Origin: a virus | Lineage: Duplodnaviria; Heunggongvirae; Uroviricota; Caudoviricetes | Strand: one strand, 5' to 3' | IMG/VR virus record: IMGVR_UViG_2718218102_000002 | Length of the DNA: 42,917 nt | Shown here: positions 1 through 42,917 of the stretch, one piece after another | Position numbering within the stretch: position 1 is the first letter of the stretch | Layout: each line of letters opens with the position of its first letter | The notes under the pieces: generated by a model | Seen by the model: the letters and a program-made list of their open reading frames with translations, nothing else | What the model was told of the DNA's origin: nothing | Database searches by the model: none | Position numbers and translations under genes: made by a program

Positions 1-854
1 TGGCATTATTACTGGAGCCACTGCAGTTCACCTTTATGAGTCACGCACTGCTGATTTCACTGGTAGTTTCCATACCCTGTGCGCTGCTGTCGGTCTTTCT
101 GGTCCTGAAAGGCTGGGCACTGATGGGTGACGCGATGAGTCATGCGGTTTTTCCTGGCATCGTGCTTGCCTGGATTCTGGGGTTACCTTTGGCTACAGGG
201 GCATTCGTCGCCGGAGTATTCTGCGCGGTGGCGACGGGATACCTGAAAGACAACAGCCGAATCAAGCAAGATACAGTGATGGGGATTGTTTTTTCTGGCA
301 TGTTTGCCGCAGGTCTGATTTTGTATATTGCAGTCAAACCAGACGTACATCTTGACCATATTCTTTTCGGCGACATGCTCGGGATAACCATCGGCGATAT
401 AATCCAGACGGTGATTATTGCTGGGCTGGTTACACTTGTTATTAGCGTAAAATGGCGAGATTTTTTGCTGTTCAGCTTTGATTATCAACAGGCGCAGGTA
501 AGCGGTTTGCATACGAGATGGCTGCATTATGGGCTGCTGTGCATGGTCTCTCTGACCATTGTGGCGACGCTGAAAGCGGTAGGTATCATTCTCTCCATTT
601 CTCTGCTCATTGCGCCTGGCGCCATTGCGGTACTCCTGACACAACGCTTTTATATTGCGCTCCTACTGGCGACTGGCATATCGGTAATAGTGTCAATGAC
701 CGGTGTCTGGCTGTCCTTTTTTATCGACAGCGCACCAGCTCCGACGATTGTCGTCTTATTCGCGGTCGCGTTCATCATGACGTTTACCGTTACCAGCATC
801 AACGCACGCACAAAGGGAAACGCCCATACACAGGATCTGTTATCACCCAATTAG
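1..854 (+). CDS. sitD: Metal (Mn/Fe) ABC transporter permease, ABC-3 family, SitD-like; 5' end cut by window edge
   Basis: Track ORF 36-854 is in frame 3 and stays open back to base 3, so the true start lies upstream of the window. Multi-pass hydrophobic protein whose N-terminal region matches SitD/MntB-type permeases as recalled. Family call is from memory. Confidence 0.65.
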   Translation, partial: ALLLEPLQFTFMSHALLISLVVSIPCALLSVFLVLKGWALMGDAMSHAVFPGIVLAWILGLPLATGAFVAGVFCAVATGYLKDNSRIKQDTVMGIVFSGMFAAGLILYIAVKPDVHLDHILFGDMLGITIGDIIQTVIIAGLVTLVISVKWRDFLLFSFDYQQAQVSGLHTRWLHYGLLCMVSLTIVATLKAVGIILSISLLIAPGAIAVLLTQRFYIALLLATGISVIVSMTGVWLSFFIDSAPAPTIVVLFAVAFIMTFTVTSINARTKGNAHTQDLLSPN

Positions 855-1517
855 CACAACATCCGAGGACATCATCGTCCGCCAGCCTACAGCAGTCCGG
901 AAAGTCATGGAAGGTCGTTGGGAGGAGGTACGAATTCTATCATGCAAAAAATACGTAAAATCGATAATAGCTGGAAATAATTCAATACATGCACTCTCGA
1001 AAGTGCATCAGCCAACCGTGGCACGTTTTTGCATACAACGAGCCACGGTTCTCTTTACGATTTATAGCTGTATTGGTGAACTATGAGCAATTTTCGCGTT
1101 ATATTCCAATCTTTAATCTCTTCACGGAACAAGTTGCGTGCATGACTATATCAAGACAACTTATAACTACCAAAACATTTGCTTTGCAAGCAAAAACGGG
1201 GACCATTGACTCTAAGAAAAATCCGATCTATTGTTAGGATTATTAAAGTTACTTAACAGTATTCCGAAATGAAAATACAAAGTAAGCTGATTGTCTTATT
1301 AAACATTATCATTGCATTTATACTATTTGAGCTTTTAGATCAAAAATTCGGTTTGAGTACATTATTTTAAAGCAAGATAAATAATATCGGGCACTCTAGT
1401 TTTTATAATTAACAATTAAACGCCCATAAAATGTTATTTACGTTTCTTCGCTATTGTAATAGCTTAATATAGTGGTTTACGCCACTCTACTTTCATCATA
1501 TTTTGTACGTTTATGTA

Positions 1518-1555
1518 ATCGCCATGAAACTCTTTCATGGCGATTTCTTATTCTT
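1518..1555 (+). terminator. Putative intrinsic terminator: 12-bp perfect inverted repeat plus T-rich tail
   Basis: atcgccatgaaa-ctc-tttcatggcgat followed by ttcttattctt. The T-run is only on the plus strand. Confidence 0.4.
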
Positions 1556-1634
1556 AATCCAAGAACATACTCCCTACCTATAGCAAAATTACTTTTGAAC
1601 AAAAGAATAACGTATTTAGGTAATCATTACGAAT

Positions 1635-2216
1635 TTACCCTATAGGTGCTACTGGCCACTCAATATCCGGTACTACTGATGTATCAACACGGTTCAGCAA
1701 CACCCGATACTTTTTCCAGGCTTCCAGCAACAAGGTTTCTTCCTCCGTTGCGATCTCCAGATCTACAGCATCCTGAAGCGGCGCTATATGCTCACTGGCT
1801 ACCTGCATCAGGCTGTTTTTTGTTTCTTCCGCCTCCCGGATCCGGAACAGTTTTTCTGCTTCCGTATCCTTCACCCAGGCTGTACCGTTCCACTTCTGAA
1901 ACTCCCCTTCCGGGGATAACCAGGTGACATTTTCCGGTAATGAGCCGAGTTCAGAAATAAATAACGCGTCGCCGGAAGCCACGTCATAGACCGTTTTTCC
2001 CCGATGGTCTTCAACGAGATGCCACGATGCCTCATCACTGTTGAAAACAGCCACGAAGCCAGCCGGAATATCTGGCGGTGCAATATCGGTACTGTTTGCT
2101 GGCAGACCTGTATGAGGCGGAATGTATGCGTCACCTTCACCAATAAATTCATTAGTTCCGGCCAGCAGATTATAAATTTTTATGGTCCGTGGTTGTTCAC
2201 TCATTCTGAATGCCAT
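1635..2216 (-). CDS. tfa: Tail fiber assembly protein Tfa (lambda Tfa-like)
   Basis: 193-aa ORF starting [20 protein letters not shown], directly downstream of stf with a 1-nt TAATG stop/start overlap. Confidence 0.9.
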
Positions 2217-5056
2217 TATGCAAGCCTCACAATATAGTTAAATGCGATGTTTTTGACGGTGTTTTCCGCGTTACCAGCAGCGTTAACGGTGATGGTGTGT
2301 CCATGTGAGCCAATCGCAACAGAGTGCGTATGAGCACCAATACCGACAGTATGCGCGTGTGCACCCGCAGATGCTGCTGTGCCGGACAGTGAGTGTGTAT
2401 GGTTTCCTTCTGAAGATGATTTACCTACCCATTGGGAGGTGCCACTGGTTAATGAGCCACTGATACCAACCTGATTAGTCCCGCTAACTTGAGTACTCCC
2501 TGCCGGAAACATTCCAGTAGGTTGACTCCCGCTATTCGTTCTGGGCCCAGTCTGACTATGTTGGTGGGCCCCAGCTGAACTTGTAGAGCCGCTCAGACTG
2601 TGCGTATGCGCCCCGGTGTTATTCGTGGATTTAGTGCCGTAATCAAACGACGATGTGGTTTTCGTACCCAAATCCGTACTGGATGCGCTGGCGCTGTGGG
2701 TGTGCGATTTAATGCCGTCCTGTTCCTGAGACAATACGGTACGACCACTGGCGGGCTTGCCCTTAATCGTCCAGCCACGCATATCAGGGATCACGCCTGA
2801 CGGATAAGCGACTGCAAGTTTCGGGTAGGCAGATTTGTCAAAAGTCTGCCCCTGCATCAGGGCATAACCAGACGGAACGGTATCCGATGGCCACGGGATT
2901 GGTGCGCCAGGCGGATAAAACTGCTCTGATGGCGTATAGAGTGAATAAACTGTACCGTCCGTTAACCCTTCCGGCTTATTAGCAGAATATGCTGGTGACG
3001 TATGAATCGTCACGCTGGCATTACTGGTATAATCCCATTGAATATTTACACCAGTCGCATAATTTCCGATTGCAACGTAAATATCGTAAGTATCACCAGA
3101 TGTATTGACCCAGGCAAAATTTGTAAACCCTGCCGAAGTGCGCTGCCATAAAGCACCAGTAATCCCCTTCGGGTTACCATTACCTGCACGCAAAACAAGT
3201 TCAGATATACCTGCCTGTTGAGGTGAACCGACGTTATATCCAGCCCCACCAATCAACGTAATTGAAACAACAGAACTCGCCTGCGGCATGGTTACCGTTG
3301 CTAATTTGAACCAACCAGCACCACCGCTAAATGACATAGTTGTTGAGTTAAGCGTACCAATATCTTTCGGTGTCAGTGTTATATCCGCTGAAAGCGCCTT
3401 ACCATTCACCTTACGGGCAGAAGGTACCCGACCATTCGCATTGTCATTAGCTGCTTTCACTGCTTTCGGTGTCGCAGCAAGCGTTTCAGATGCGCTGTTG
3501 GTTGCACTACTGAGCTGGACAATTCCTTTTTGTGCTGTCGTAGCGTCCTGAGCGGTATATTTCCCGCTAGCCAGGTCATACGCGGCCTTAACGGCTTTTG
3601 GCGTTGCCGCCAGTGACTCGGAAGTGCTGTTAGTCGCACTGCTGAGCTGTACTATCCCCTTTTTCGTCGTGCTCGCATCCTCAAGCGCCACGGCGGATGC
3701 AATATCCTCTGCCCGTTTTGCTGCTGTCTCGGCGCGCGTTGCCGCGGATTCCGCCGTACTTTTGCTCTGAGCTGCCGCCGTCGCACTGCCAGCTGCCTCT
3801 GTCGCCTTCGTGGATGCCGTCGTGGCGCTGCCCTTCGCTGCTGACGCTTGTCTGGTCGCCTCATCTTTTGAAGCAGACGCCGATGATGCCGATGACGCCG
3901 CCGAACTGGCTGACGATGCGGCAGCCGTTTTTGAGGATTCTGCGCTGGTTTCCGACGCTTTCGCGTTCGTTTCGGATGTCTTCGCTGCGGAAGCTGACCT
4001 CGCTGCTGCCGTGGCCTGTTCAGTGGCTTCGCCAGCCTTCGTTGTGGCTGTTGAAGCGGATGATGCGGCGCTTTCTGCCGACTTTCCGGCAGCGGTGGCA
4101 CTGGCTGAGGCCTGCCCGGCATTTGTTGACGCGGCGCTGGCAGATGAGGCAGCCGCTGTTTTTGAGTCTGCTGCTGCGGAGGCACTCTGTGCTGCTGCCG
4201 TCTCAGAAGACTTAGCGTTCGTCTCGGACGTTTTTGCCGCCTTCGCGGAATTGCCTGCCGCTGTTGCCGAGGAGGCTGCACTACTGGCGCTCGAGGCTGC
4301 GCTCGTTTCTGATGATTTTGCCGCCTCTTTTGAAGCCGACGCATCTCTGGCTGAGGTGGCAGCTTCTGACGCTTTCGTGGTCGCGGTGGATGCAGAAGTG
4401 GCGGCTGATTGTTGTGACGCTGAAGCATTCGTTTCTGACGTTTTCGCCGCACCGGCACTGGTGGCCGCCGCGCTTTTTGAGGACTCTGCAGCGGCAGCAC
4501 TTTTTGATGCTTCAGTGGCCTTTGTTGATGCCGTTACTGCGCTGGAAGACGCTGACTGAGCCGACGACGCGGCCTGTCCGGCTGACGTGCTGGCTGCGCG
4601 TGCGGAGTCCGCAGCATCAGTCGCATGGGTTGCCGCCTCACGGGCTGATGTGCTGGCATCGCTGGCTGACTTCTTCGCGGCTGCCGTGTTCTGTGCCACC
4701 GCGGACGCGTTACGCGCCACCTCTTCCACCATCAGCTCAAAACGGCGCAGTGCCTCCGGACGGACATCATCCTCAGTCATGGCACCAAGAAAATCATTCA
4801 GCGTACCGGGTTGAGAATCTTCATACACGGTGATGGTCCCGGCATGTGACGGCGGGAATCCCTCCACCAACAGAATAACGCTGTACTGACCGTACTCAAC
4901 GTCCATACTGTAACGCCCGGCTTCATCCGGATTTTCAGATGCCAGCGTGTTCACCACCACCGTGGTGCTGTTACGTTTTGCTTTCAGCTGGATTGTGCAG
5001 TTCTGTACCGGTTTTCCTGTGCCGTCTTTCAGTACACCTGAAATCTTTACTGCCAT
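2216..5056 (-). CDS. stf: Side tail fiber protein Stf, with Ala/Ser-rich repeat core and His-rich C-terminal repeats
   Basis: N-terminus [20 protein letters not shown] as recalled for lambda Stf. The track start at 5062 is a GTG; the ATG at 5056 is preferred. Duplicated [12 protein letters not shown]...[11 protein letters not shown] motif and HTHS/AHxH repeats near the C-terminus. Confidence 0.9.
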
Positions 5057-5065
5057 ATTCACCCC

Positions 5066-11261: not shown

Positions 11262-11590
11262 CAGTTCACCACCTGTTCAAACTCTGCGCTGAACTCAACA
11301 CGCAGCATACTGACCCGCGACGACCATTTTGCGCAGGTCACCTTTATCTGCCGCCACTCATAAGGCGGCGTCCACAGAAAGGATTTCCAGCCCCCGTGCT
11401 CAGCCAGAAACGACTCCAGCGCCGTGGCCTCCCAACGGGGGACAGAAAGCGTCACGCTGTACGTTTTCAGGTTGGCATTCAGCCCGGCAGGCGCTCGCTG
11501 GGAATAGCCATCACCAAAGCGCACCTTTCTTACAGAAGGGGCCGAAGCCACATCCATACCGGGTTTCACTTTCCAGCGGAAGGTTTTCAT
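11261..11590 (-). CDS. M: Tail tip assembly protein M
   Basis: 109 aa as in lambda M. Confidence 0.9.
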   Translation of the reverse strand: MKTFRWKVKPGMDVASAPSVRKVRFGDGYSQRAPAGLNANLKTYSVTLSVPRWEATALESFLAEHGGWKSFLWTPPYEWRQIKVTCAKWSSRVSMLRVEFSAEFEQVVN

Positions 11591-14148
11591 CGTCCACCTC
11601 CGGAGAACAGGCCACCATCACGCATCTGTGTCTGAATTTCATCACGGGCACCCTTGCGGGCCATGTCATACACTGCCTTCATCATCTGTGGACCTGGCAG
11701 ACCATTCGTACCGTCGTTCTGAATCACCACGTGATTGTTCTGATTAAAATTAATGCCTTCAGCCCGCCGCATCTGCGCCGGACTTCCGGCACCGCCCACA
11801 TAACCACCTTCCGCATAGCCCCGCATTAGGCGGTACAGGTTGCCGACACCAATCCGGCTGGTTGCCTCCTTCGTGAAGACAAACTCACCACGGTGAACAA
11901 TCCCCGCTGGCTCATATTTGCCGCCGGTTCCCGTAAATCCTCCGGTTGCAAAATGGAATTTCGCCGCAGCGGCCTGAATGGCTGAACCGCCTGACGCGGA
12001 TGCGCCGCCACCAACAGCCCCGCCAATAGCGCTGCCGATACTCCCGACAATCCCCACCATTGCCTGCTTAAGCAGAATTTCTGTCATCATGGACAGCACG
12101 GAACGGGTGAAGCTGCGCCAGTTCTGTTCACTGCCGGTCAGCATCGCCGCCATATTCTGCGCAATACCATCAAAGGTCTGCGTGGCAGCACTTTTAACCT
12201 GCGACATACTGTCCGTGGCACTCTCTTTCCACTCGCTCCAGCCGGACCTGAGGCCTGCCATCCAGTTCCCGCGAAGCAGGTCTTCAGCCGCCCAGGTCTT
12301 TTTCTGCTCTGACATGACGTTATTCAGCGCCAGAGGATTATCGCCATACTGTTCCTTCAGGCGCTGTTCCGTGGCTTCCCGTTCTGCCTGCCGGTCAGTC
12401 AGCCCCCGGCTTTTCGCATCAATAGCGGCCCGTTTTGCCCGTTGCTGCTGTGCGAATTTATCCGCCTGCTGCGCCAGCGCGTTCAGGCGCTCCTGATACG
12501 TAACCTTGTCGCCAAGTGCAGCCAGCTGGCGTTTGTACTCCAGCGTCTCATCTTTATGCGCCAGCAGGGATTTCTCCTGTGCAGACAGCTGGCGACGTTG
12601 CGCCGCCTCCTCCAGTACCGCGAACTGACTCTCCGCCTTCCACAAATCCCGGCGCTGCTGGCTGATTTTCTCATTTGCTCCGGCATGCTTCTCCAGCGTC
12701 CGGAGTTCAGCCTGAAGCGTCAGCAGGGCAGCATGAGCACTGTCTTCCTGACGATCGCCCGCAGACACCTTCACGCCGGACTGCTTCGGCTTTTTCAGTG
12801 TCGTTTCATAGTCCTTTTTCGCTGCCGCCATCAGCGTGTTGTAATCTGCCTGCAGGATTTTTCCGTCTTTCAGGGCCTTATTCAGTTCTTCCTGACGGGC
12901 GGCATATTTCTCCAGCGGCGTCTGCAGCCGTTCGTAAGCCTTCTGCGCCTCTTCGGTATATTTCAGCCGTGACGCTTCGGTATCGCTCTGCTGCTGCGCA
13001 TTTTTGTCCTGTTGACTCTGCTGTTCAGCCTTCTTTCGGGCGGCTTCAAGCGCAAGACGGGCCTTTTCACGATCATCCCAGTAACGCGCCCGCGCTTCAT
13101 CGTTAACAAAATAATCATCCTTGCGCAGATTCCAGATATCGTCCGCTTTCTTAAACGCGGCCTCTGCCTTAATCAGCATCTCCTGCGCGGTATCAGGACG
13201 ACCAATATCCAGCACCGCATCCCACATAGATTTGAATGCCCGTGCTGTCCTCTCTGCCCAGGTCTCCAGCGTGCCCATGTTCTCTTTCAGGCGGCGGGTC
13301 TGGTCATCAAACCCTTTCGTCGCGGCCTCGTTCGCCGCCTGCAATGCCCCGGCTTCTTCGCCGGAACGCTGCAACTGAGCAACATACGCAATCTGCTCCG
13401 CCGTCACGTTATGGAACTGGCGCGCCATCGCTGTCAGCCCCGACGTCGGGTCAGTGGTCAGCTTCCCGAAGGCTTCAGCGACCTTGTCCACCTCCACGCC
13501 GGATGCAGAGGAGAAACGCGCCACACTCTGGCTGATGGACGCAATCTGAGCCTCACCGCTTACCCCCGCCTTAACCAGTGCGCTGAGTGACTCGCTGGTC
13601 TGGTTAAACGTCAGCCCTGCCGCCTGCCCGGCTCTGGACAGGACCAGCATACGATCTGCCGTCAGCCCCGACTGATTGCCGGAAAGGACCAGCGTTTTGT
13701 TGAAATCGGACAGGGTTGAGTTGCCCTGATACCAGGCATACGCCAGCGCACCGGTCGCCACCGCCAGCGAGGTGGCCCCGACCATCGGCAGGGTGATCGC
13801 ACCGGCAAGCCCCCGGAACATGGGGATCATCCCGCCGAAGGAGTCCTTCACCTGCCCCCCCTGTTGCAGCAGGATCAGCCACGGACTTTGCCCGCCTGCA
13901 AGCTGCGTGGCCACGTCGGTGAACTGTGCAGGCAGCATACGCATGGCGGCTTTATACTGCCCGACGGAAATCCCCGCTTTCTGTGCAGCCAGCGCCTGCC
14001 GGTTCATCGACTGTTCAACGACTGCCGCTGTTTTTTTCGCATCACTTTCCGTACCGGAAAAATGACGCCTGACTCTGGCCATCTGCTCGTCAAATCTGGC
14101 CGCATCCAGACTTAAATCAACGACCAGATCGCCTACCGGTTCAGCCAT
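11587..14148 (-). CDS. H: Tail tape measure protein H
   Basis: 853 aa as in lambda H; long coiled-coil central region. Confidence 0.9.
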   Translation of the reverse strand: MAEPVGDLVVDLSLDAARFDEQMARVRRHFSGTESDAKKTAAVVEQSMNRQALAAQKAGISVGQYKAAMRMLPAQFTDVATQLAGGQSPWLILLQQGGQVKDSFGGMIPMFRGLAGAITLPMVGATSLAVATGALAYAWYQGNSTLSDFNKTLVLSGNQSGLTADRMLVLSRAGQAAGLTFNQTSESLSALVKAGVSGEAQIASISQSVARFSSASGVEVDKVAEAFGKLTTDPTSGLTAMARQFHNVTAEQIAYVAQLQRSGEEAGALQAANEAATKGFDDQTRRLKENMGTLETWAERTARAFKSMWDAVLDIGRPDTAQEMLIKAEAAFKKADDIWNLRKDDYFVNDEARARYWDDREKARLALEAARKKAEQQSQQDKNAQQQSDTEASRLKYTEEAQKAYERLQTPLEKYAARQEELNKALKDGKILQADYNTLMAAAKKDYETTLKKPKQSGVKVSAGDRQEDSAHAALLTLQAELRTLEKHAGANEKISQQRRDLWKAESQFAVLEEAAQRRQLSAQEKSLLAHKDETLEYKRQLAALGDKVTYQERLNALAQQADKFAQQQRAKRAAIDAKSRGLTDRQAEREATEQRLKEQYGDNPLALNNVMSEQKKTWAAEDLLRGNWMAGLRSGWSEWKESATDSMSQVKSAATQTFDGIAQNMAAMLTGSEQNWRSFTRSVLSMMTEILLKQAMVGIVGSIGSAIGGAVGGGASASGGSAIQAAAAKFHFATGGFTGTGGKYEPAGIVHRGEFVFTKEATSRIGVGNLYRLMRGYAEGGYVGGAGSPAQMRRAEGINFNQNNHVVIQNDGTNGLPGPQMMKAVYDMARKGARDEIQTQMRDGGLFSGGGR

Positions 14149-22054: not shown

Positions 22055-22257
22055 AATTTCACTCCCAGCGGACGACGGCGACACCGGGTTGTCCCCAGTA
22101 CCGACTCCGCATCATTGATCGCCCGGTTAAGCTCATCCAGAGAAGCCGCCGTATATTCAATTCTGCGACCATCTTTCTGGACAGACACCACCCGTTTACC
22201 GGTTAATAAATCAAGGCGCGCCTGACGCAGCGCCTGCAGTTCAGCGACTGTAACCAT
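22051..22257 (-). CDS. W: Head-tail connector protein W
   Basis: 68 aa as in lambda W; contains TGKRVVSVQKDGRRIE. Confidence 0.85.
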   Translation of the reverse strand: MVTVAELQALRQARLDLLTGKRVVSVQKDGRRIEYTAASLDELNRAINDAESVLGTTRCRRRPLGVKL

Positions 22258-24169
22258 TCACTCCTCCGGACAGCTTCGCTGCCAGTTCTTTAAGGGTTGG
22301 CCGGGTCGTCTCTTCTTCCCGGGATTTTGCCAGTACAGCCAGATCAAGCTGCCAGCGTTGCACGGACACACGTAATGCCGCGTAGGCATACACCAGGCAG
22401 TCCAGCGCTTCGTTACGCCGCTTTTTGTTATCCCACAGCAGACGCATCTTTCCTTTTTCCCACTTCTCCACAAGCTCTTCCGCGACCAGTTGCTGCGCCT
22501 CTGTCTGCGAAAAAATCTCCGGATCATCAGGAAAACGGATGGCATACGACGTGGCTTCATCCACAGGCGTGGGATCGGCTTTCATACGGGCATAGAGAAT
22601 TTCTTTTGCGGTGTCCGTCCCCACTTCACACAGATACACGCCCCGCTGATTGCGGGTTTTTGGCATGGTGATCACCGGCTTGCCATAGACAGATGCGCCT
22701 TTTACCGGCAGCACCCGGAAAACACCGTGTTTTTTTGACCTCTGATAAACGATTTCGCCATCGATCCCCCCGATGTCCCAGCAGACACGGGAAATAGTCA
22801 TTTCGGTTCCGTCTGCATGGCGGTATTTTTTGTTGATCGCCGCATCCACACGTAACAGCGTCTCTTCCTCATCGGGACGCCCCATAATGATGATTTTATC
22901 CACCAGAAAGGCTTCCTCTCCCGGAGCCCATCCCCAGACATACATCTCAAAACGGTTTCGCTGCGAGTCAATGCCCGCCGTCAGATAAACCACCCGGGCA
23001 GGCACCGCCGCCGTGTAACGCACAACCTTATCCATCAGCACCTGGTGATCGAGTTTTTCGCCCACAGCCTCTTCCCAGGTCTCGCCCAGCGTGGTGTTCA
23101 CAAAGGTTTTCAGGCCGTTGGGATCTTTCAGTGCATCCAGCCAGTCATAGACAATCTGTACCCAGGTGGTGAACGGACTGTACGCCGTCCAGATATGGAA
23201 AGTGATGGAGCGCGGCGGCGGAATTTCATCACCCCGGGCGCTGAAAAACATCAGGCCGTCACGGGTCCACATGCCCGTGTTTTCACAGATCCACCGCCCG
23301 TTACTCTGGTCAAGCTCAGACTGATGGATCACACAGCCATGATGCTCACAAAGGTAGAAAACACTTTCTGGCTTATTCTTCTCCCACTTAAGACCGAAAG
23401 GCGAGGCATCATCGCCAAATTTCAGATACTGCTCCTCCCCACAGTGCGGACAGGGCACATAAAAACGCATGAAGTGTGCCGACTCGTTAGCGGCTTTTTC
23501 GATCTGGCAGGAGCCTTTGATTTTAGGCGTCGAGCCGCGAATGGATTTTGGCCATACAGAGCCCTCAATACGTTTATCCCCCAGCAGGGTTGGCGAACCC
23601 TCTTTTTCAACATCCGGTTCGAACGAGGAAAGCTCGTCATAACAGACCACATCCACGGATTTTTCACGGTAGTTTTTTGCTGCCGCACCACCCAGACACC
23701 AGAACCCCACACCGGAGGAAAAACGCTTCAGGGTGAGCGTATTATCGCGGTGTTTTCTTCCGAACCATGGAGCCAGCTCCAGCAATGCAGGAACATCCCT
23801 TATCGTTGGCTCAACATGAGATTTCATAAAATCTTCAGCAGCTGAGTCCGTGGGCTGAAAAAGAAGGCTGTTGCGTGATTTATGCTCAATAAAATAAGCC
23901 TCCACTCCCAGCAACATCTTTGTATAACCAACACGGGCAGATTTAATCAGGTTAACCGTGCGAATCAGATCGTTGCCCATACAGTTCATGATGCCAACCT
24001 GAAACGGCAGTGTTTCCCACCGCCCCGGGGTATAAGACGACTCTTTAGGAAGGTAATAATGTTTATTGGCCCACTGAACTGTCGTCAGTGGAACAGGAAT
24101 AATGAGAGATAAAAGCCCTGTAGCTATCGCACCGGCTGCATTAGCTGCCTTCTGCGCGTCTGAAATCAT
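22241..24169 (-). CDS. A: Terminase large subunit A
   Basis: Blocks recalled from lambda gpA ([16 protein letters not shown], Walker-type region). Start set at MISDAQ, overlapping the Nu1 3' end by 29 nt. Confidence 0.9.
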
Positions 24170-24689
24170 CGATCCACCCGCCCACGTTTTCACCGGCCTT
24201 AGCTGCAACATTGGAGGCTTTCGCGATTTCAGTTTTCACCACATCAAGGTGTGATGGTGAAATGTCCGGATATTTACGCTGTAATGTCAACGGCACACGC
24301 ACAAGTATCCCCGAAATCTCCTGTGCCACACGTTGCAGAATGAAGGTAAACAGTTCAGTTTCCAGCACTACTCCGTCTTCACGGGCATTTTTCAGTTCCT
24401 GCGCATCTGCCTGCGCTTTTGTGAGCCGGTAGCGTTCATAGTCAATGGTGCCGGGTTGTAAATCTGACTCCGCTGCCGCACGCAAATCGTCCAGTTCTTT
24501 GCGGAGCTTTTCGTTTTCGATATCAGTTTCCCTCTGCGCATACCACTGAATTGCCATGGCAGTATCAAATACAGATTCAATGCCCTTACTACCTTTGGAG
24601 GCGCAAGGGAGTCCCTGAGACTGCCAGCGTTCAATCGTCCGCGGGTCCACGTTGAAAATTTCGGCAAGCCTCTTTTTATTAACCTTCAT
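24141..24689 (-). CDS. Nu1: Terminase small subunit Nu1
   Basis: 182 aa, starting [12 protein letters not shown] with a winged-helix N-terminus; sits about 170 bp downstream of cosN. Confidence 0.9.
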
Positions 24690-25641: not shown

Positions 25642-25968
25642 TCAAGGACGTGACGGCGTAAAGATAAATTGTCTCTTCACTCCCTGACAGGGGCGATTCT
25701 TTTCAAATCGCCATTTCGCCATGGCCTTCACCACTTCATCACGAAACAAATTATGAGGCTCTGAGCGGAGAAAAACGATCCGTGTCACAGTCCCATCAGC
25801 ACCAATATCGAACTTAACCTCAACCAGCCCCTTGATATAATTTGCTGCAGCATATTCCGGATATCGTGGATACACCGTCACTAATTGCCGGGGCTCATCA
25901 GCTTTTTGCTGCGAGCATCCCACTGCCAGGACAGATAACAGAAAAAGTAGTAAAAGGCGTCTTTTCAT
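25642..25968 (-). CDS. Lipoprotein with TonB C-terminal-like domain (accessory gene)
   Basis: Start set at MKRRLLLLFLLSVLAVGCSQ (lipobox LAVGC), with an AGGA Shine-Dalgarno. The mature part resembles the TonB_C fold pattern (YPRYPEYAAANYIKGLVEVKFDIGADGTV…AMAKWRFE). Confidence 0.55.
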   Translation of the reverse strand: MKRRLLLLFLLSVLAVGCSQQKADEPRQLVTVYPRYPEYAAANYIKGLVEVKFDIGADGTVTRIVFLRSEPHNLFRDEVVKAMAKWRFEKNRPCQGVKRQFIFTPSRP

Positions 25969-26448: not shown

Positions 26449-26742
26449 ATGAAAAAAATGTTGTTTTCTGCCGCTCTGGCAATGCTTATTACAGGATGTG
26501 CTCAACAGACGTTTACTGTTGGAAACAAACCTACAGCAGTAACACCAAAGGAAACCATCACCCATCATTTCTTCGTTTCGGGAATTGGGCAGAAGAAAAC
26601 TGTCGATGCAGCAAAAATTTGTGGTGGTGCAGAAAATGTTGTTAAAACAGAAACCCAGCAAACATTCGTAAATGGATTGCTCGGTTTTATTACTTTAGGC
26701 ATTTATACTCCGCTGGAAGCGCGTGTGTATTGCTCACAATAA
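26449..26742 (+). CDS. bor: Bor lipoprotein (serum resistance)
   Basis: 97 aa, starting MKKMLFSAALAMLITGCAQQ; opposite strand to the late genes, between Rz and cos as in lambda. Confidence 0.9.
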   Translation: MKKMLFSAALAMLITGCAQQTFTVGNKPTAVTPKETITHHFFVSGIGQKKTVDAAKICGGAENVVKTETQQTFVNGLLGFITLGIYTPLEARVYCSQ

Positions 26743-28532: not shown

Positions 28533-29615
28533 ATGAAAAAATTAACAGTGGCAATTTCTGCTGTAGCTGCATCAGTACTGATGGCGATGTCTGCTCAGGC
28601 AGCTGAAATTTATAATAAAGACAGTAACAAGCTGGATCTATACGGGAAAGTTAATGCCAAGCACTACTTCTCCTCTAATGATGCAGATGATGGTGATACT
28701 ACTTATGCCCGTCTTGGCTTCAAAGGTGAAACCCAAATCAACGATCAACTGACTGGTTTCGGTCAGTGGGAATATGAATTCAAAGGCAACCGTGCTGAAT
28801 CTCAAGGTTCTTCCAAAGACAAAACCCGTCTTGCATTTGCAGGCCTGAAATTTGGTGATTACGGCTCAATCGATTACGGCCGTAACTACGGTGTAGCATA
28901 CGACATCGGTGCGTGGACTGACGTTCTGCCAGAATTCGGTGGTGATACCTGGACCCAAACAGATGTGTTCATGACTGGTCGCACTACTGGTGTTGCAACT
29001 TATCGTAACAACGACTTCTTTGGTCTGGTCGATGGCCTGAACTTTGCTGCTCAGTATCAGGGTAAAAATGACCGCACTGACGTAACTGAAGCCAATGGTG
29101 ATGGTTTCGGTTTCTCCACTACTTATGAGTATGAAGGATTCGGCGTGGGTGCAACCTATGCTAAATCAGATCGCACTGACGGTCAGGTCGCCTATGGTAA
29201 GAGCAAATTCAATGCCTCCGGCAAAAATGCGGAAGTATGGGCTGCAGGCCTGAAATATGATGCGAACAATATCTATCTGGCTACCACATATTCTGAAACT
29301 CAGAATATGACCGTTTTTGGTAATAACCATATTGCAAACAAAGCACAAAACTTTGAAGCAGTAGCACAATATCAGTTTGACTTCGGTCTGCGTCCATCTG
29401 TTGCTTACCTTCAGTCAAAAGGTAAAGACCTTGGTGTTCATGGTGACCGAGACTTAGTCAAGTATGTCGATGTCGGTGCTACTTACTACTTTAATAAAAA
29501 CATGTCCACTTTTGTTGATTACAAAATCAACTTAATTGACGATAGTAAGTTTACCAAAACAGCTGGTATTGATACCGACGACATCGTCGCTGTAGGTCTG
29601 GTTTATCAGTTCTAA
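28533..29615 (+). CDS. Outer membrane porin, OmpC/OmpF/NmpC (Lc-like) family
   Basis: Start set at MKKLTVAIS with a cleavable signal peptide; classic porin N-terminus [16 protein letters not shown] and C-terminal VGLVYQF. Confidence 0.85.
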
Positions 29616-41548: not shown

Positions 41549-41785
41549 ATGTCTCGACTAATCACTTTACAGGACTGGGCTAAAGAAGAATTTGGGGACT
41601 TAGCACCAAGTGAGCGAGTTCTGAAAAAATACGCGCAAGGGAAAATGATGGCCCCACCCGCTATAAAAGTTGGTCGCTACTGGATGATTGACCGAAATTC
41701 CCGTTTTGTAGGAACGCTTGCAGAACCGCAACTCCCAATAAACGCAAACCCAAAACTCCAACGGATAATCGCTGATGGCTGCTAG
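41549..41785 (+). CDS. xis: Excisionase (Xis-like)
   Basis: 78 aa, starting MSRLITLQDW with …PPAIKVGRYW, resembling lambda Xis as recalled. AGGAGG Shine-Dalgarno; 3' end overlaps int. Confidence 0.7.
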   Translation: MSRLITLQDWAKEEFGDLAPSERVLKKYAQGKMMAPPAIKVGRYWMIDRNSRFVGTLAEPQLPINANPKLQRIIADGC

Positions 41786-42917
41786 ACCCCGATCTCACAA
41801 AATCTCTATACCCAATTTATATTGCAAATTAGATAAGCGAACCGGAAAGGTATATTGGCAATACAAACATCCACTATCCGGTCGTTTTCATAGCTTAGGA
41901 ACTGATGAGAATGAAGCAAAACAAGTTGCTACTGAAGCAAATACCATTATTGCTGAACAACGTACCCGACAAATATTAAGCGTCAATGAGCGTCTGGAAA
42001 GAATGAAAGGCAGGCGCTCAGACATTACGGTGACAGAATGGCTTGATAAATATATTTCTATCCAGGAGGACAGGCTGCAACATAATGAACTAAGACCCAA
42101 CTCCTATCGGCAAAAAGGCAAACCCATTCGTCTTTTCCGTGAGCATTGTGGAATACAACACCTCAAGGATATTACCGCACTTGATATTGCCGAAATAATT
42201 GATGCTGTAAAGGCTGAAGGTCATAACAGGATGGCGCAAGTCGTGAGAATGGTGTTAATCGACGTCTTCAAAGAAGCACAACACGCAGGACATGTTCCGC
42301 CAGGATTTAACCCAGCGCAGGCAACAAAACAACCGCGAAATCGAGTAAACCGCCAAAGATTATCACTGCCCGAATGGCAGGCAATATTTGACAGCGTAAG
42401 CAGACGGCAGCCCTATTTAAAATGCGGGATGCTACTTGCTCTTGTCACTGGACAACGTTTAGGCGATATCTGCAATTTGAAATTCTCTGATATCTGGGAC
42501 GACATGTTGCACATTACTCAGAAAAAAACCGGTTCAAAACTTGCTATTCCGCTTAACCTGAAATGCGATGCTCTGAATATTACCCTTCGTGAAGTTATAT
42601 CTCAGTGCAGGGATGCTGTTGTTAGTAAATATCTGGTCCATTACCGTCACACAACCTCTCAAGCAAACAGAGGAGACCAGGTTTCTGCGAATACTCTGAC
42701 AACGGCTTTTAAAAAGGCCAGGGAAAAATGTGGCATAAAATGGGAGCAAGGAACTGCGCCCACATTTCATGAGCAGCGATCTCTGTCAGAACGGTTATAT
42801 CGGGAACAGGGTCTGGATACGCAAAAGTTGTTAGGCCATAAATCCAGAAAAATGACCGACCGATACAATGATGATCGTGGTAAAGACTGGATTATCGTAG
42901 ATATCAAAACAGCATAG
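41775..42917 (+). CDS. int: Tyrosine integrase (lambda Int family)
   Basis: 380 aa with the C-terminal catalytic region (…HEQRSLSERLY…LLGHKS…). Stop codon is the last three bases of the window. Confidence 0.9.
   Translation: MAARPRSHKISIPNLYCKLDKRTGKVYWQYKHPLSGRFHSLGTDENEAKQVATEANTIIAEQRTRQILSVNERLERMKGRRSDITVTEWLDKYISIQEDRLQHNELRPNSYRQKGKPIRLFREHCGIQHLKDITALDIAEIIDAVKAEGHNRMAQVVRMVLIDVFKEAQHAGHVPPGFNPAQATKQPRNRVNRQRLSLPEWQAIFDSVSRRQPYLKCGMLLALVTGQRLGDICNLKFSDIWDDMLHITQKKTGSKLAIPLNLKCDALNITLREVISQCRDAVVSKYLVHYRHTTSQANRGDQVSANTLTTAFKKAREKCGIKWEQGTAPTFHEQRSLSERLYREQGLDTQKLLGHKSRKMTDRYNDDRGKDWIIVDIKTA

What the first reader, a model, noticed from the sequence alone, without database searches (positions are those of the whole stretch)
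1..1634. Metal-uptake permease gene abutting the prophage tail-fibre end, with a 780-bp AT-rich spacer
A SitD-like permease gene ends at 854, and tfa ends at 1635 on the other strand. The intervening AT-rich DNA carries a strong palindromic terminator-like hairpin (1518-1555). I recall the sit operon being phage-associated in some Enterobacteriaceae, so it may be cargo in this prophage's b-region equivalent rather than host core, with the true prophage boundary lying outside the window.
Basis: inference. Interest (0 to 1): 0.4.

Follow-up and report, generated by a model that had tools for sequence, protein, structure and literature searches.

The report
Phage-carried sit metal-uptake operon
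The metal-uptake gene next to the tail-fibre genes is cargo carried inside a lambda-like prophage of E. coli inserted in the icd gene, an arrangement already described for many coliphages, so the finding is correct but ordinary.

Summary
sitD ends at 854, tfa (minus strand) ends at 1635, and the 780-bp spacer has GC 0.35 against 0.51 for the window. A strong hairpin lies at 1517-1545 with a T-rich tail.

The interpretation also holds. The window is 99.99-100% identical to E. coli HB37 and BH100. There the order is icd-int-xis...J-lom-stf-tfa-spacer-sitDCBA-~0.9 kb-icd' fragment-ymgL-ycgX.

The only att repeat is a 215-bp copy of the icd 3' end. It lies 3.5 kb left of the window and 63 bp past its right end, and no copy lies in the spacer. 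The rebuilt empty site is contiguous in 2911 of 5426 E. coli genomes.

Virion DNA of isolated phages such as 4A7 joins the int side to the sit side through attP, at 98.6-99.3% identity. Published work already describes sitABCD as a common lambda-phage moron.

The spacer is a mosaic:
- a sit 3' tail that ends in a hairpin showing compensatory changes;
- a 545-bp AT-rich block that travels with tfa in about 815 genomes.

Verdict: already known, low interest.

The parts
1..854 (+). sitD, the last gene of sitABCD (iron/manganese ABC transporter permease). The gene starts 4 nt before the window.
   Evidence: ORF; RefSeq SitD WP_022296427.1; Pfam ABC-3 at 250 bits.
855..1050 (+). sit 3' tail. It travels with sitD in other sit-bearing prophages and ends in a hairpin.
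   Evidence: Homology with the Rac-site sit loci runs from 1 to 1040.
1014..1050 (+). Conserved hairpin at the end of the sit module, probably a 3'-end or terminator structure of the sit mRNA.
   Evidence: 14-nt arms, 93% complementary. Free energy -19 kcal/mol, z-score -3.5. Three stem pairs are changed on both sides in the Rac-type sit loci while pairing is kept. Rfam CssrB matches the hairpin only, below threshold.
1041..1089 (.). Mosaic joint between the sit module and the tfa-linked block.
   Evidence: sit-linked homology stops at about 1040, and tfa-linked homology (ev099, mEp332, PhiR70_1, Qin-like prophages) starts at 1090-1093.
1090..1634 (.). AT-rich block (GC 0.30) that travels with tfa in lambdoid prophages and phages, with or without sit.
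   Evidence: About 93-94% identical in about 815 E. coli genomes (chromosomes only) and in 4 phage records. Unannotated in the E. coli RefSeq records and in three of the four phage records; PhiR70_1 calls one hypothetical protein there.
1206..1234 (+). Sigma-70-like promoter, TTGACT-17-TATTGT.
   Evidence: The -35 hexamer is invariant across 31 distinct copies. This is a consensus match only, and the region has no excess of such sites.
1269..1370 (+). Unannotated 33-aa hydrophobic ORF, YncL-like (MKIQSKLIVLLNIIIAFILFELLDQKFGLSTLF).
   Evidence: NCBIfam YncL at E 7.5e-5 and 22.5 bits, below the cut-off of 35. 11 of 31 residues are identical in register with K-12 YncL, and 0 of 20000 shuffles reach the score. 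The ORF is intact at 33 aa in all 55 copies. Variable sites by codon position are 8/2/13, and pN/pS is 0.145 against an 80%-identical copy. There is no Shine-Dalgarno sequence.
1517..1555 (+).
   Evidence: The 10-bp core stem is invariant in all homologues, including the 80%-identical one.
1635..2216 (-). tfa, tail fibre assembly protein.
2216..5062 (-). stf, side tail fibre.
41549..41785 (+). Excisionase.
   Evidence: HB37 annotation mapped to the window with the coordinates.
41775..42917 (+). Integrase. The window ends at its stop codon, and attL (the icd 3' end) begins 63 bp further on.

Best explanation
Positions 1-1634 are the attR-proximal arm, the equivalent of the lambda b region, of a roughly 46.7-kb lambda-like prophage integrated into the 3' end of icd.

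The phage carries its own copy of the last ~215 bp of icd as attP. After integration icd therefore stays intact next to int, and the displaced host 3' end remains as a pseudogene beyond sitA.

sitABCD sits between the tail-fibre genes and attP. It is lysogenic-conversion cargo (a moron) that gives the lysogen an extra Mn2+/Fe2+ importer. It is transcribed from its own promoter, which carries a Fur box and an MntR-type palindrome. Its direction converges on the phage late (tail) operon.

The 780-bp spacer is a recombination mosaic with two parts:
- 855-1050 is the sit 3' tail, ending in a structurally conserved hairpin.
- 1090-1634 is an AT-rich block that belongs to the tfa module of Qin/ev099-type lambdoid phages. 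It contains a small plus-strand unit: a promoter-like site, a 33-aa YncL-like membrane-peptide ORF, a conserved 3' region and the strong hairpin with its T tail.

The hairpin most likely terminates this unit, together with any read-through from sit, before transcription would run antisense into tfa.

Shown: the gene identities, the att boundaries, the empty site, the presence of sit in virion DNA, and the mosaic block structure.
Taken from published work on related phages, not tested here: expression of sit in the lysogen.
Inferred: Fur/MntR control, translation of the small ORF, and terminator function.
For: - Identity: the window is 99.99% identical to HB37 over its whole length, and positions 1-2300 are 100% identical to BH100.
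- Gene order in both strains is icd-int...tfa-spacer-sitDCBA-icd'-ymgL-ycgX.
- The icd 3' end is duplicated once (215 bp, 94%). There is no copy in the spacer.
- The empty site is contiguous at 100% identity, and 2911 of 5426 genomes cover it at 80% or more.
- Phage 4A7 virion DNA is contiguous across attP. The sit side is 99.3% identical over 4598 bp, and the int side 98.6% over 5469 bp.
- Many isolated phages of 46-50 kb carry sitD. The rest of the prophage is 59-73% covered at 97-99% identity by isolated phages PhiR57_1, 4A7 and Perceval.
- The insert length of 46,704 bp is in the range of those phage genomes.
- Upstream of sitA there is a Fur box with 2 mismatches and a perfect MntR-type palindrome, with 0 expected by chance.
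- Literature: sitABCD is on 70% of infant-gut lambda phages and has a fur box (PMC6969025). It is cargo at the tail end of an EAEC 042 prophage (PMC2808357). Perceval is active and expresses sit in the lysogen (PMC9928086).
- Spacer mosaic.
- Small unit.
Against: - Excision and virion production of this particular prophage were not tested. HB37 has single-base frameshifts in the terminase and tape-measure genes, although the window and BH100N have them intact.
- The small ORF has no Shine-Dalgarno sequence. It scores below the NCBIfam YncL cut-off (22.5 against 35 bits). It is annotated in none of the E. coli RefSeq or phage records examined, and its nucleotide diversity is low, so the coding signal rests on few substitutions.
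- The promoter match is 9 of 12, and the region has no excess of promoter-like sites (2 found, 3.4 expected).
- The hairpin stem is invariant, so there is no covariation evidence for it.
Confidence: 0.93

Rival explanations
1. sitABCD is host core DNA and the prophage ends in the spacer between 854 and 1635. The hairpin would mark the junction.
For: The AT-rich spacer and the convergent genes look like a boundary when only the window is seen.
Against: - There is no icd/att sequence in the spacer.
- The empty site joins icd directly to ymgL-ycgX and contains no sit.
- sitD is present in only 2342 of 5426 genomes and is often on plasmids.
- Virion DNA of isolated phages contains sitABCD next to attP.
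- The right part of the spacer is itself phage DNA found in phages that have no sit.
Confidence: 0.01
2. Two elements lie in tandem. An older sit island or decayed prophage sits at icd, and a newer lambdoid phage later integrated beside it. On this view sit is within the att-bounded region but is not part of the mobile phage genome.
For: - 'PAI sit' is described as an island at several chromosomal sites (PMC7545054).
- The sit-tfa joint is mosaic and rare: only 18 genomes carry the full spacer.
Against: - There is no third icd fragment between the parts.
- The sit-side flank up to attP is 99.3% identical to packaged DNA of phage 4A7.
- The total length of 46.7 kb is within the genome sizes of the isolated sit phages.
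- All phage genes are intact in BH100N.
Confidence: 0.03
3. The hairpin at 1517-1545 is the terminator of the tail (late) operon after tfa, or a bidirectional terminator, and not the end of a separate small unit. On this view the 33-aa ORF is a chance ORF in conserved non-coding DNA.
For: - The perfect palindrome folds equally well on both strands (-24.9 against -25.6 kcal/mol for the 106-nt context).
- The ORF lacks a Shine-Dalgarno sequence and is sub-threshold for YncL.
- The flanking non-coding DNA is also about 93% conserved.
Against: - On the minus strand the stem is followed by ACAUAAACG, with no U tract. The pattern scan calls it on the plus strand only.
- It lies 90 nt beyond the tfa stop codon.
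- The ORF is intact at exactly 33 aa in 55 of 55 copies, including an 80%-identical one. Variable sites by codon position are 8/2/13 and pN/pS is 0.145.
- The YncL similarity is in register and was reached by 0 of 20000 shuffles.
Confidence: 0.25

Closest known systems
Lambda-like coliphages carrying sitABCD: phage Perceval of AIEC LF82, and the infant-gut phages 4A7, Lambda_2E9, ev207, 1H12, 1W/3W
   Same: - sitABCD lies between the tail genes and attP(icd')-int, with the sit segment and att flanks 98-99% identical.
- The other cargo genes are the same: porin, TonB fragment, iss/bor.
- They have a Fur box upstream of sit.
   Different: In those phages homology stops 20 bp after sitD, at 874. 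There sit abuts a tfa remnant, IS elements or other genes. Here it is joined to a complete stf-tfa module through the 545-bp AT-rich block. This joint is found in only 18 of 5426 genomes.
EAEC 042 prophage 042p3 (ROD21) and the 'PAI sit' of Shigella and E. coli
   Same: [quoted passage not shown]
   Different: The integration sites differ. 042p3 is bounded by a 15-bp direct repeat. Other strains seen here have sit beside tfaR at the uspF/ompN (Rac-type) site. Here the attachment site is icd.
e14 and phage 21 type integration into icd
   Same: The phage supplies a substitute icd 3' end, so icd stays intact, and the displaced host 3' end remains as a pseudogene (icdC) at the far end. The comparison with e14 and phage 21 comes from my own knowledge (Hill et al. 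1989; Campbell et al. 1992) and was not checked here.
   Different: e14 is a small defective element without sit. I did not compare the integrases or the exact crossover core.
Lambda b region and classical morons (lom, bor)
   Same: Non-essential cargo lies between the tail-fibre genes and att, with its own promoter, is expressed in the lysogen, and is bounded by hairpins.
   Different: The cargo is a four-gene ABC importer regulated by host metal repressors, not a single membrane-protein gene.
YncL, a 31-aa stress-response small membrane protein of E. coli K-12
   Same: The length is similar (33 against 31 aa), with a single hydrophobic helix and in-register similarity of 11/31 identities. 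The NCBIfam NF000537 hit has E 1e-5 to 7e-5. YncL overproduction depolarises the membrane and condenses the nucleoid (PMC12542507).
   Different: It scores below the family cut-off, lacks the Shine-Dalgarno sequence that yncL has, and is located in prophage DNA. Its expression and function are untested.

Membership tests
Prophage cargo (moron) in the b-region equivalent of a lambdoid phage | Lies between attL and attR of the prophage. | tested here: met
   The icd/icd' 215-bp repeat brackets int...tfa-spacer-sitDCBA, with no internal copy.
Prophage cargo (moron) in the b-region equivalent of a lambdoid phage | Absent, together with the phage, from the unoccupied site. | tested here: met
   The in-silico empty site ycgX-ymgL-icd is contiguous at 100% identity, and 2911 of 5426 genomes cover it at 80% or more.
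Prophage cargo (moron) in the b-region equivalent of a lambdoid phage | Present in packaged DNA of related phages, between the tail genes and attP. | tested here: met
   4A7, Perceval, Lambda_2E9 and others. attP joins both flanks.
Prophage cargo (moron) in the b-region equivalent of a lambdoid phage | Own promoter, independent of phage lytic control, and expression in the lysogen. | tested here: inconclusive
   A Fur box and an MntR-type palindrome lie upstream of sitA. Expression is shown only for Perceval in LF82 in the literature, not for this prophage.
Prophage cargo (moron) in the b-region equivalent of a lambdoid phage | Dispensable for the phage lytic and lysogenic cycles. | not testable with these tools
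   Supported indirectly: related phages ev099 and mEp332 lack sit.
SitD / ABC-3 metal-transporter permease | Pfam ABC-3 (PF00950) above the gathering score, and identity to the annotated SitD. | tested here: met
   250 bits against a cut-off of 20.1. Positions 1-2300 are 100% identical at the DNA level to the HB37 and BH100 loci where RefSeq annotates SitD WP_022296427.1.
icd-integrating lambdoid phage (e14 / phage 21 type) | Integration in the 3' end of icd, with a phage-borne replacement of the icd 3' end. | tested here: met
   Intact icd lies beside int, the displaced 168-bp pseudogene lies at the other end, and attP of 4A7 carries the icd fragment.
Rho-independent terminator (hairpin 1517-1555) | G+C-containing stem-loop followed directly by a U tract on the transcribed strand. 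| tested here: met
   13-bp stem with 5 GC pairs, tail TCTTATTCTT (TTTTTTATTCTT in homologues), plus strand only.
Rho-independent terminator (hairpin 1517-1555) | Transcripts end there in vivo. | not testable with these tools
   This needs term-seq or Northern data.
YncL family (NCBIfam NF000537, equivalog) | Score at or above the curated cut-off of 35 bits. | tested here: not met
   22.5-25 bits for the three variants, against 68.6 bits for K-12 YncL. It should be called YncL-like, not YncL.
YncL family (NCBIfam NF000537, equivalog) | Single-helix peptide of about 30 aa under purifying selection. | tested here: met
   33 aa in 55 of 55 copies, codon-position variability 8/2/13, pN/pS 0.145. 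The number of substitutions is small.
Rfam CssrB (RF02799) | Score at or above the gathering score of 76 bits. | tested here: not met
   34.4 bits. Only the terminal hairpin aligns, and about 100 model positions are missing.

The most novel reading that the evidence does not exclude
The 'empty' AT-rich spacer downstream of tfa may encode an unannotated, phage-borne YncL-like 33-aa membrane peptide. It would have its own promoter, a highly conserved 3' region and a terminator. The unit is carried by about 15% of complete E. coli genomes (Qin-type and related lambdoid prophages) and by isolated phages. It could be a small depolarising or stress peptide, or a dual mRNA/sRNA unit, that acts as a further moron.
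Probability: 0.4. Interest if true: 0.3.

Novelty: already known. Interest (0 to 1): 0.12.

Why it matters
The result confirms that a virulence-associated Mn/Fe importer is here part of a complete, apparently intact temperate phage genome. It can therefore move between E. coli strains by lysogeny, which matters for how fitness and virulence traits spread. This is already established in the literature for Perceval, the infant-gut lambda phages and EAEC 042, so the present case adds only another mosaic variant of the sit-tail joint.

The one modest new lead is the conserved YncL-like small ORF and terminator unit in the tfa-downstream block. Genome annotation misses it.

Tried and rejected
- Third att/icd fragment inside the window: I searched with blastn at word size 7. 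The only hit was the 37-nt icd-downstream flank at the window's right end.
- Rfam on 600-2400 at permissive E-values: it returned only IS009, which lies inside the tfa CDS, and a sub-threshold CssrB hit that is limited to the 1014-1050 hairpin. The rseX, Phe_leader and other hits are noise with E above 0.1. According to the source paper, cssrB in S. flexneri lies between SF2021 and SF2022, not at sit.
- Other spacer ORFs (907-1086, 989-1237, 1472-1645): no family hits apart from an insignificant PHROG match at E 0.012. PhiR70_1 annotates a 114-nt ORF that overlaps 1124-1237. I treat it as an unsupported gene call.
- The exact-sequence look-up found only two unnamed copies.
- The search of 1.84 billion representative proteins found only the peptide's own cluster and a frameshifted variant.
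- A degenerate-pattern scan of one genome per species found nothing. The same scan of viral contigs found 48 loci, all close relatives.
- Covariation support for the 1517-1545 stem: none is possible, because the core stem is invariant.
- Two early scripts failed for file-handling reasons and one timed out. They were repeated successfully.
Full report
**Observation.**
- An ORF at 36..854 (+) is the 3' part of sitD. RefSeq annotates SitD from 4 nt before the window start to 854 in identical chromosomes, and it matches Pfam ABC-3 at 250 bits.
- The ORF at 1635..2216 (-) is a tail fibre assembly protein, matching PHROG 105 at E 1e-98 and Pfam Caudo_TAP at 149 bits.
- The 780-bp spacer has GC 0.346 against 0.507 for the window. 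The low GC is concentrated in 1090-1634 (0.303), while 855-1089 has 0.447.
- The hairpin is a 13-bp stem at 1517-1529/1533-1545 with a 3-nt loop, followed by TCTTATTCTT. Its free energy is -17.8 kcal/mol and its z-score -6.7. It is the only terminator-like site in 700-1800 and is called on the plus strand only.

**Where the window comes from.** Positions 1-2300 are 100% identical to E. coli BH100/BH100N (a urine isolate) and to HB37 (a chicken isolate). The whole window is 99.99% identical to HB37. Their flanks can therefore stand in for what lies outside the window.

**Prophage boundaries.** In HB37 and BH100N the gene order is icd (intact)-int-xis-...-J-lom-stf-tfa-spacer-sitD-sitC-sitB-sitA-~0.9 kb of AT-rich DNA-a 168-bp annotated icd pseudogene that lacks its N-terminus-ymgL-ycgX-bluR.
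- The end of icd next to int and the pseudogene beyond sitA share 215 bp at 94% identity. The shared stretch runs from the icd terminator hairpin to ...CATATGGCGCAGCA.
- In window terms, attR lies at about -3726 to -3512, and attL lies 63-277 bp past the right end. The window ends exactly at the int stop codon.
- A sensitive blastn search with icd finds no other fragment in the window, and none in 855-1634.
- The insert is 46,704 bp in HB37 (coordinates).

**Empty site.** I joined the DNA to the left of attR to the DNA to the right of attL, 800 bp on each side, and searched 5426 complete E. coli genomes. The junction is contiguous at 100% identity in several strains, with the features ycgX, ymgL and icd. 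In all, 2911 genomes cover the query at 80% or more. It places the boundary at icd', not between 854 and 1635.

**Virion DNA.**
- Many isolated temperate coliphages of 46-50 kb carry sitD, including 4A7, Lambda_2E9, ev207, 1H12, 1W/3W, Perceval and PhiR47_2.
- In phage 4A7 the order is exo-...-xis-int-icd fragment-sitABCD-...-tail genes.
- Its attP has the int-side flank of this prophage on one side and the sit-side flank on the other.
- HB37 DNA from attR through sitD plus 17 bp is 99.3% identical to 4A7 over 4598 bp, and the int side is 98.6% identical over 5469 bp.
- The rest of the prophage is a mosaic relative of isolated phages: PhiR57_1 covers 73% at 98.9%, and 4A7 and Perceval cover about 60% at 97-98%.
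- In BH100N none of the prophage genes is flagged as a pseudogene. HB37 has single-base frameshifts in the terminase and tape-measure genes.

**Is sit core or accessory?** sitD occurs in 2342 of 5426 genomes, at 1645 chromosomal and 1012 plasmid places. It is also found beside tfaR at the uspF/ompN (Rac-type) site in other strains. It is therefore an accessory, mobile module.

**Regulation.** Upstream of sitA, inside the prophage but outside the window, two motifs occur with none expected by chance:
- a Fur box, GTTAATGATAATCATTTTC, with 2 mismatches to the consensus;
- a perfect AAACATAGC-N4-GCTATGTTT palindrome.

That the palindrome is the MntR operator type comes from my own knowledge of the mntH and sitA promoters. 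It was not tested here.

**Literature.**
- Mathieu et al. 2020 found sitABCD on 70% of lambda phages from infant-gut E. coli, each with a fur box, and counted it as a moron (PMC6969025).
- Chaudhuri et al. 2010 list sitABCD as cargo 'at the tail end' of an EAEC 042 prophage (PMC2808357).
- Misson et al. 2023 show that Perceval of LF82 is an active prophage. Its sit genes, NmpC porin and TonB fragment are expressed in the lysogen (PMC9928086). The same cargo set is present in this window.
- A review describes 'PAI sit' at several chromosomal sites (PMC7545054).

**Anatomy of the spacer.** The spacer is a recombination mosaic.

*Part one, 855 to about 1050.* This part travels with sitD in other sit prophages. 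It ends in a hairpin at 1014-1050 with free energy -19 kcal/mol and z-score -3.5. In the Rac-type sit loci the same hairpin has three stem pairs changed on both sides with pairing kept: CCGTGGC.ACGTT/AACG.GCCACGG becomes CCGCAGAACGTT/AACGTTTCTGCGG. That argues for a selected structure at the 3' end of the sit transcript. The U tract is poor, so it may act more as a 3' stabiliser than as an efficient terminator (inference). Rfam's CssrB matches only this hairpin, at 34 bits against a gathering score of 76. I do not file it as CssrB.

*Part two, 1090-1634.* This part is about 93-94% identical to DNA downstream of tfa in about 815 E. coli genomes, which are mostly Qin-type prophages at ydfJ. It is also found in phages ev099, mEp332 and PhiR70_1, which have no sit.

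*The joint.* It lies at 1041-1089, and the complete spacer occurs in only 18 genomes. Other sit phages show other joints:
- 4A7 goes from 874 straight to a tfa remnant (window 1695-1751).
- The Rac type goes from 1040 through 45 bp to tfa.
- Strain GF54 has an MFS efflux gene and tfa fragments in between.

**A small unit inside the AT-rich block.** Four elements lie in order on the plus strand:
- a sigma-70-like site at 1206-1234, TTGACT-17-TATTGT;
- a 33-aa ORF at 1269-1370;
- a strongly conserved 3' region at 1455-1555 with a small hairpin;

*Evidence that the ORF codes.* The ORF product, MKIQSKLIVLLNIIIAFILFELLDQKFGLSTLF, hits NCBIfam YncL (NF000537) at E 7.5e-5. Its 22.5 bits are below the cut-off of 35, and the two other variants score 23.5-25 bits.
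- K-12 YncL is MNVSSRTVVLINFFAAVGLFTLISMRFGWFI. The two align in register with 11 of 31 identities, and 0 of 20000 composition-preserving shuffles reach that score.
- In 55 copies from the window, fetched loci and 48 viral contigs, the ORF is always intact at 33 aa. There are four protein variants.
- Variable alignment columns by codon position are 8/2/13.
- Against the 80%-identical copy in strain GF54, the differing codons are 10 synonymous and 6 non-synonymous, giving pN/pS 0.145. An indel and faster divergence begin right after the stop codon.

*Evidence against.* There is no Shine-Dalgarno sequence, unlike yncL. Diversity is low. No RefSeq or phage annotation calls this ORF. The big protein searches find only its own tiny cluster.

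*Assessment.* I rate a real expressed YncL-like peptide gene at about 0.4. Published work shows that YncL overproduction causes sublethal membrane depolarisation and nucleoid condensation (PMC12542507). That suggests what such a peptide could do, but nothing here tests it.

*Role of the hairpin.* On this reading the hairpin ends this unit and any sit read-through before transcription would run antisense into tfa. The alternative is that it serves the late operon. That is less likely, because the minus strand has no U tract after the stem.

**Verdict.** The prophage boundary on this side lies outside the window at the icd' pseudogene, and sitABCD is phage cargo in the b-region equivalent. This is an already known arrangement, so interest is low. 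The only lead beyond the known is the unannotated YncL-like small ORF and terminator unit in the tfa-downstream block.

Noticed in passing
window 1206-1555 (+): A conserved small unit sits in the 'empty' spacer: a promoter-like site, an unannotated 33-aa YncL-like hydrophobic ORF (1269-1370), a very conserved 3' block and a terminator hairpin. It is present in about 815 of 5426 E. coli genomes and in phages ev099, mEp332 and PhiR70_1. The ORF itself is not annotated in any E. coli RefSeq or phage record examined.
   Followed up: partly
window 1014-1050 (+): The hairpin at the end of the sit 3' tail keeps its pairing through three double (compensatory) changes in the sit loci at the Rac-type site (L005 7477-7512, L059). 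Rfam CssrB matches this hairpin only, on the minus strand and below threshold.
   Followed up: partly
window 1675-1873 (-): Rfam IS009 (RF02111) matches at 221 bits, above its gathering score of 117. The match lies wholly inside the tfa coding sequence and in the sense orientation. The 'RNA family' looks like a conserved tfa gene fragment and not a separate sRNA (my inference).
   Followed up: no
window 25642-25968 (-), 26449-26742 (+), 28533-29615 (+): The same prophage carries further cargo-type genes: a TonB-family fragment, iss/bor (serum-survival lipoprotein) and an OmpC/NmpC-type porin. This is the same set reported as expressed morons of phage Perceval in LF82.
   Followed up: no
L010 (E. 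coli GF54) 1582-4607: This is another variant of the same slot. Between sitD and stf lie a Bcr/CflA MFS efflux gene, two tfa fragments and an 80%-identical copy of the AT-rich YncL-like unit. The sit-tail joint therefore looks like a hot spot for cargo exchange.
   Followed up: partly
L005 (ON032529.1, 'Salmonella phage SPF_0923') 195-3280: This 35-kb 'phage' record carries ydbK-like pyruvate-flavodoxin oxidoreductase, OmpN and UspF next to sitABCD. That is the host flank of the Rac-type attachment site in E. coli. The record looks like a prophage region cut from a chromosome and not a virion genome.
   Followed up: no
window 11587-14148 (-) and 22241-24211 (-): The tape-measure and large-terminase ORFs are intact in the window and in BH100N. 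In the otherwise 99.99%-identical HB37 prophage they are annotated as frameshifted (single-base gaps). Either the HB37 copy is freshly inactivated or these are assembly errors.
   Followed up: no
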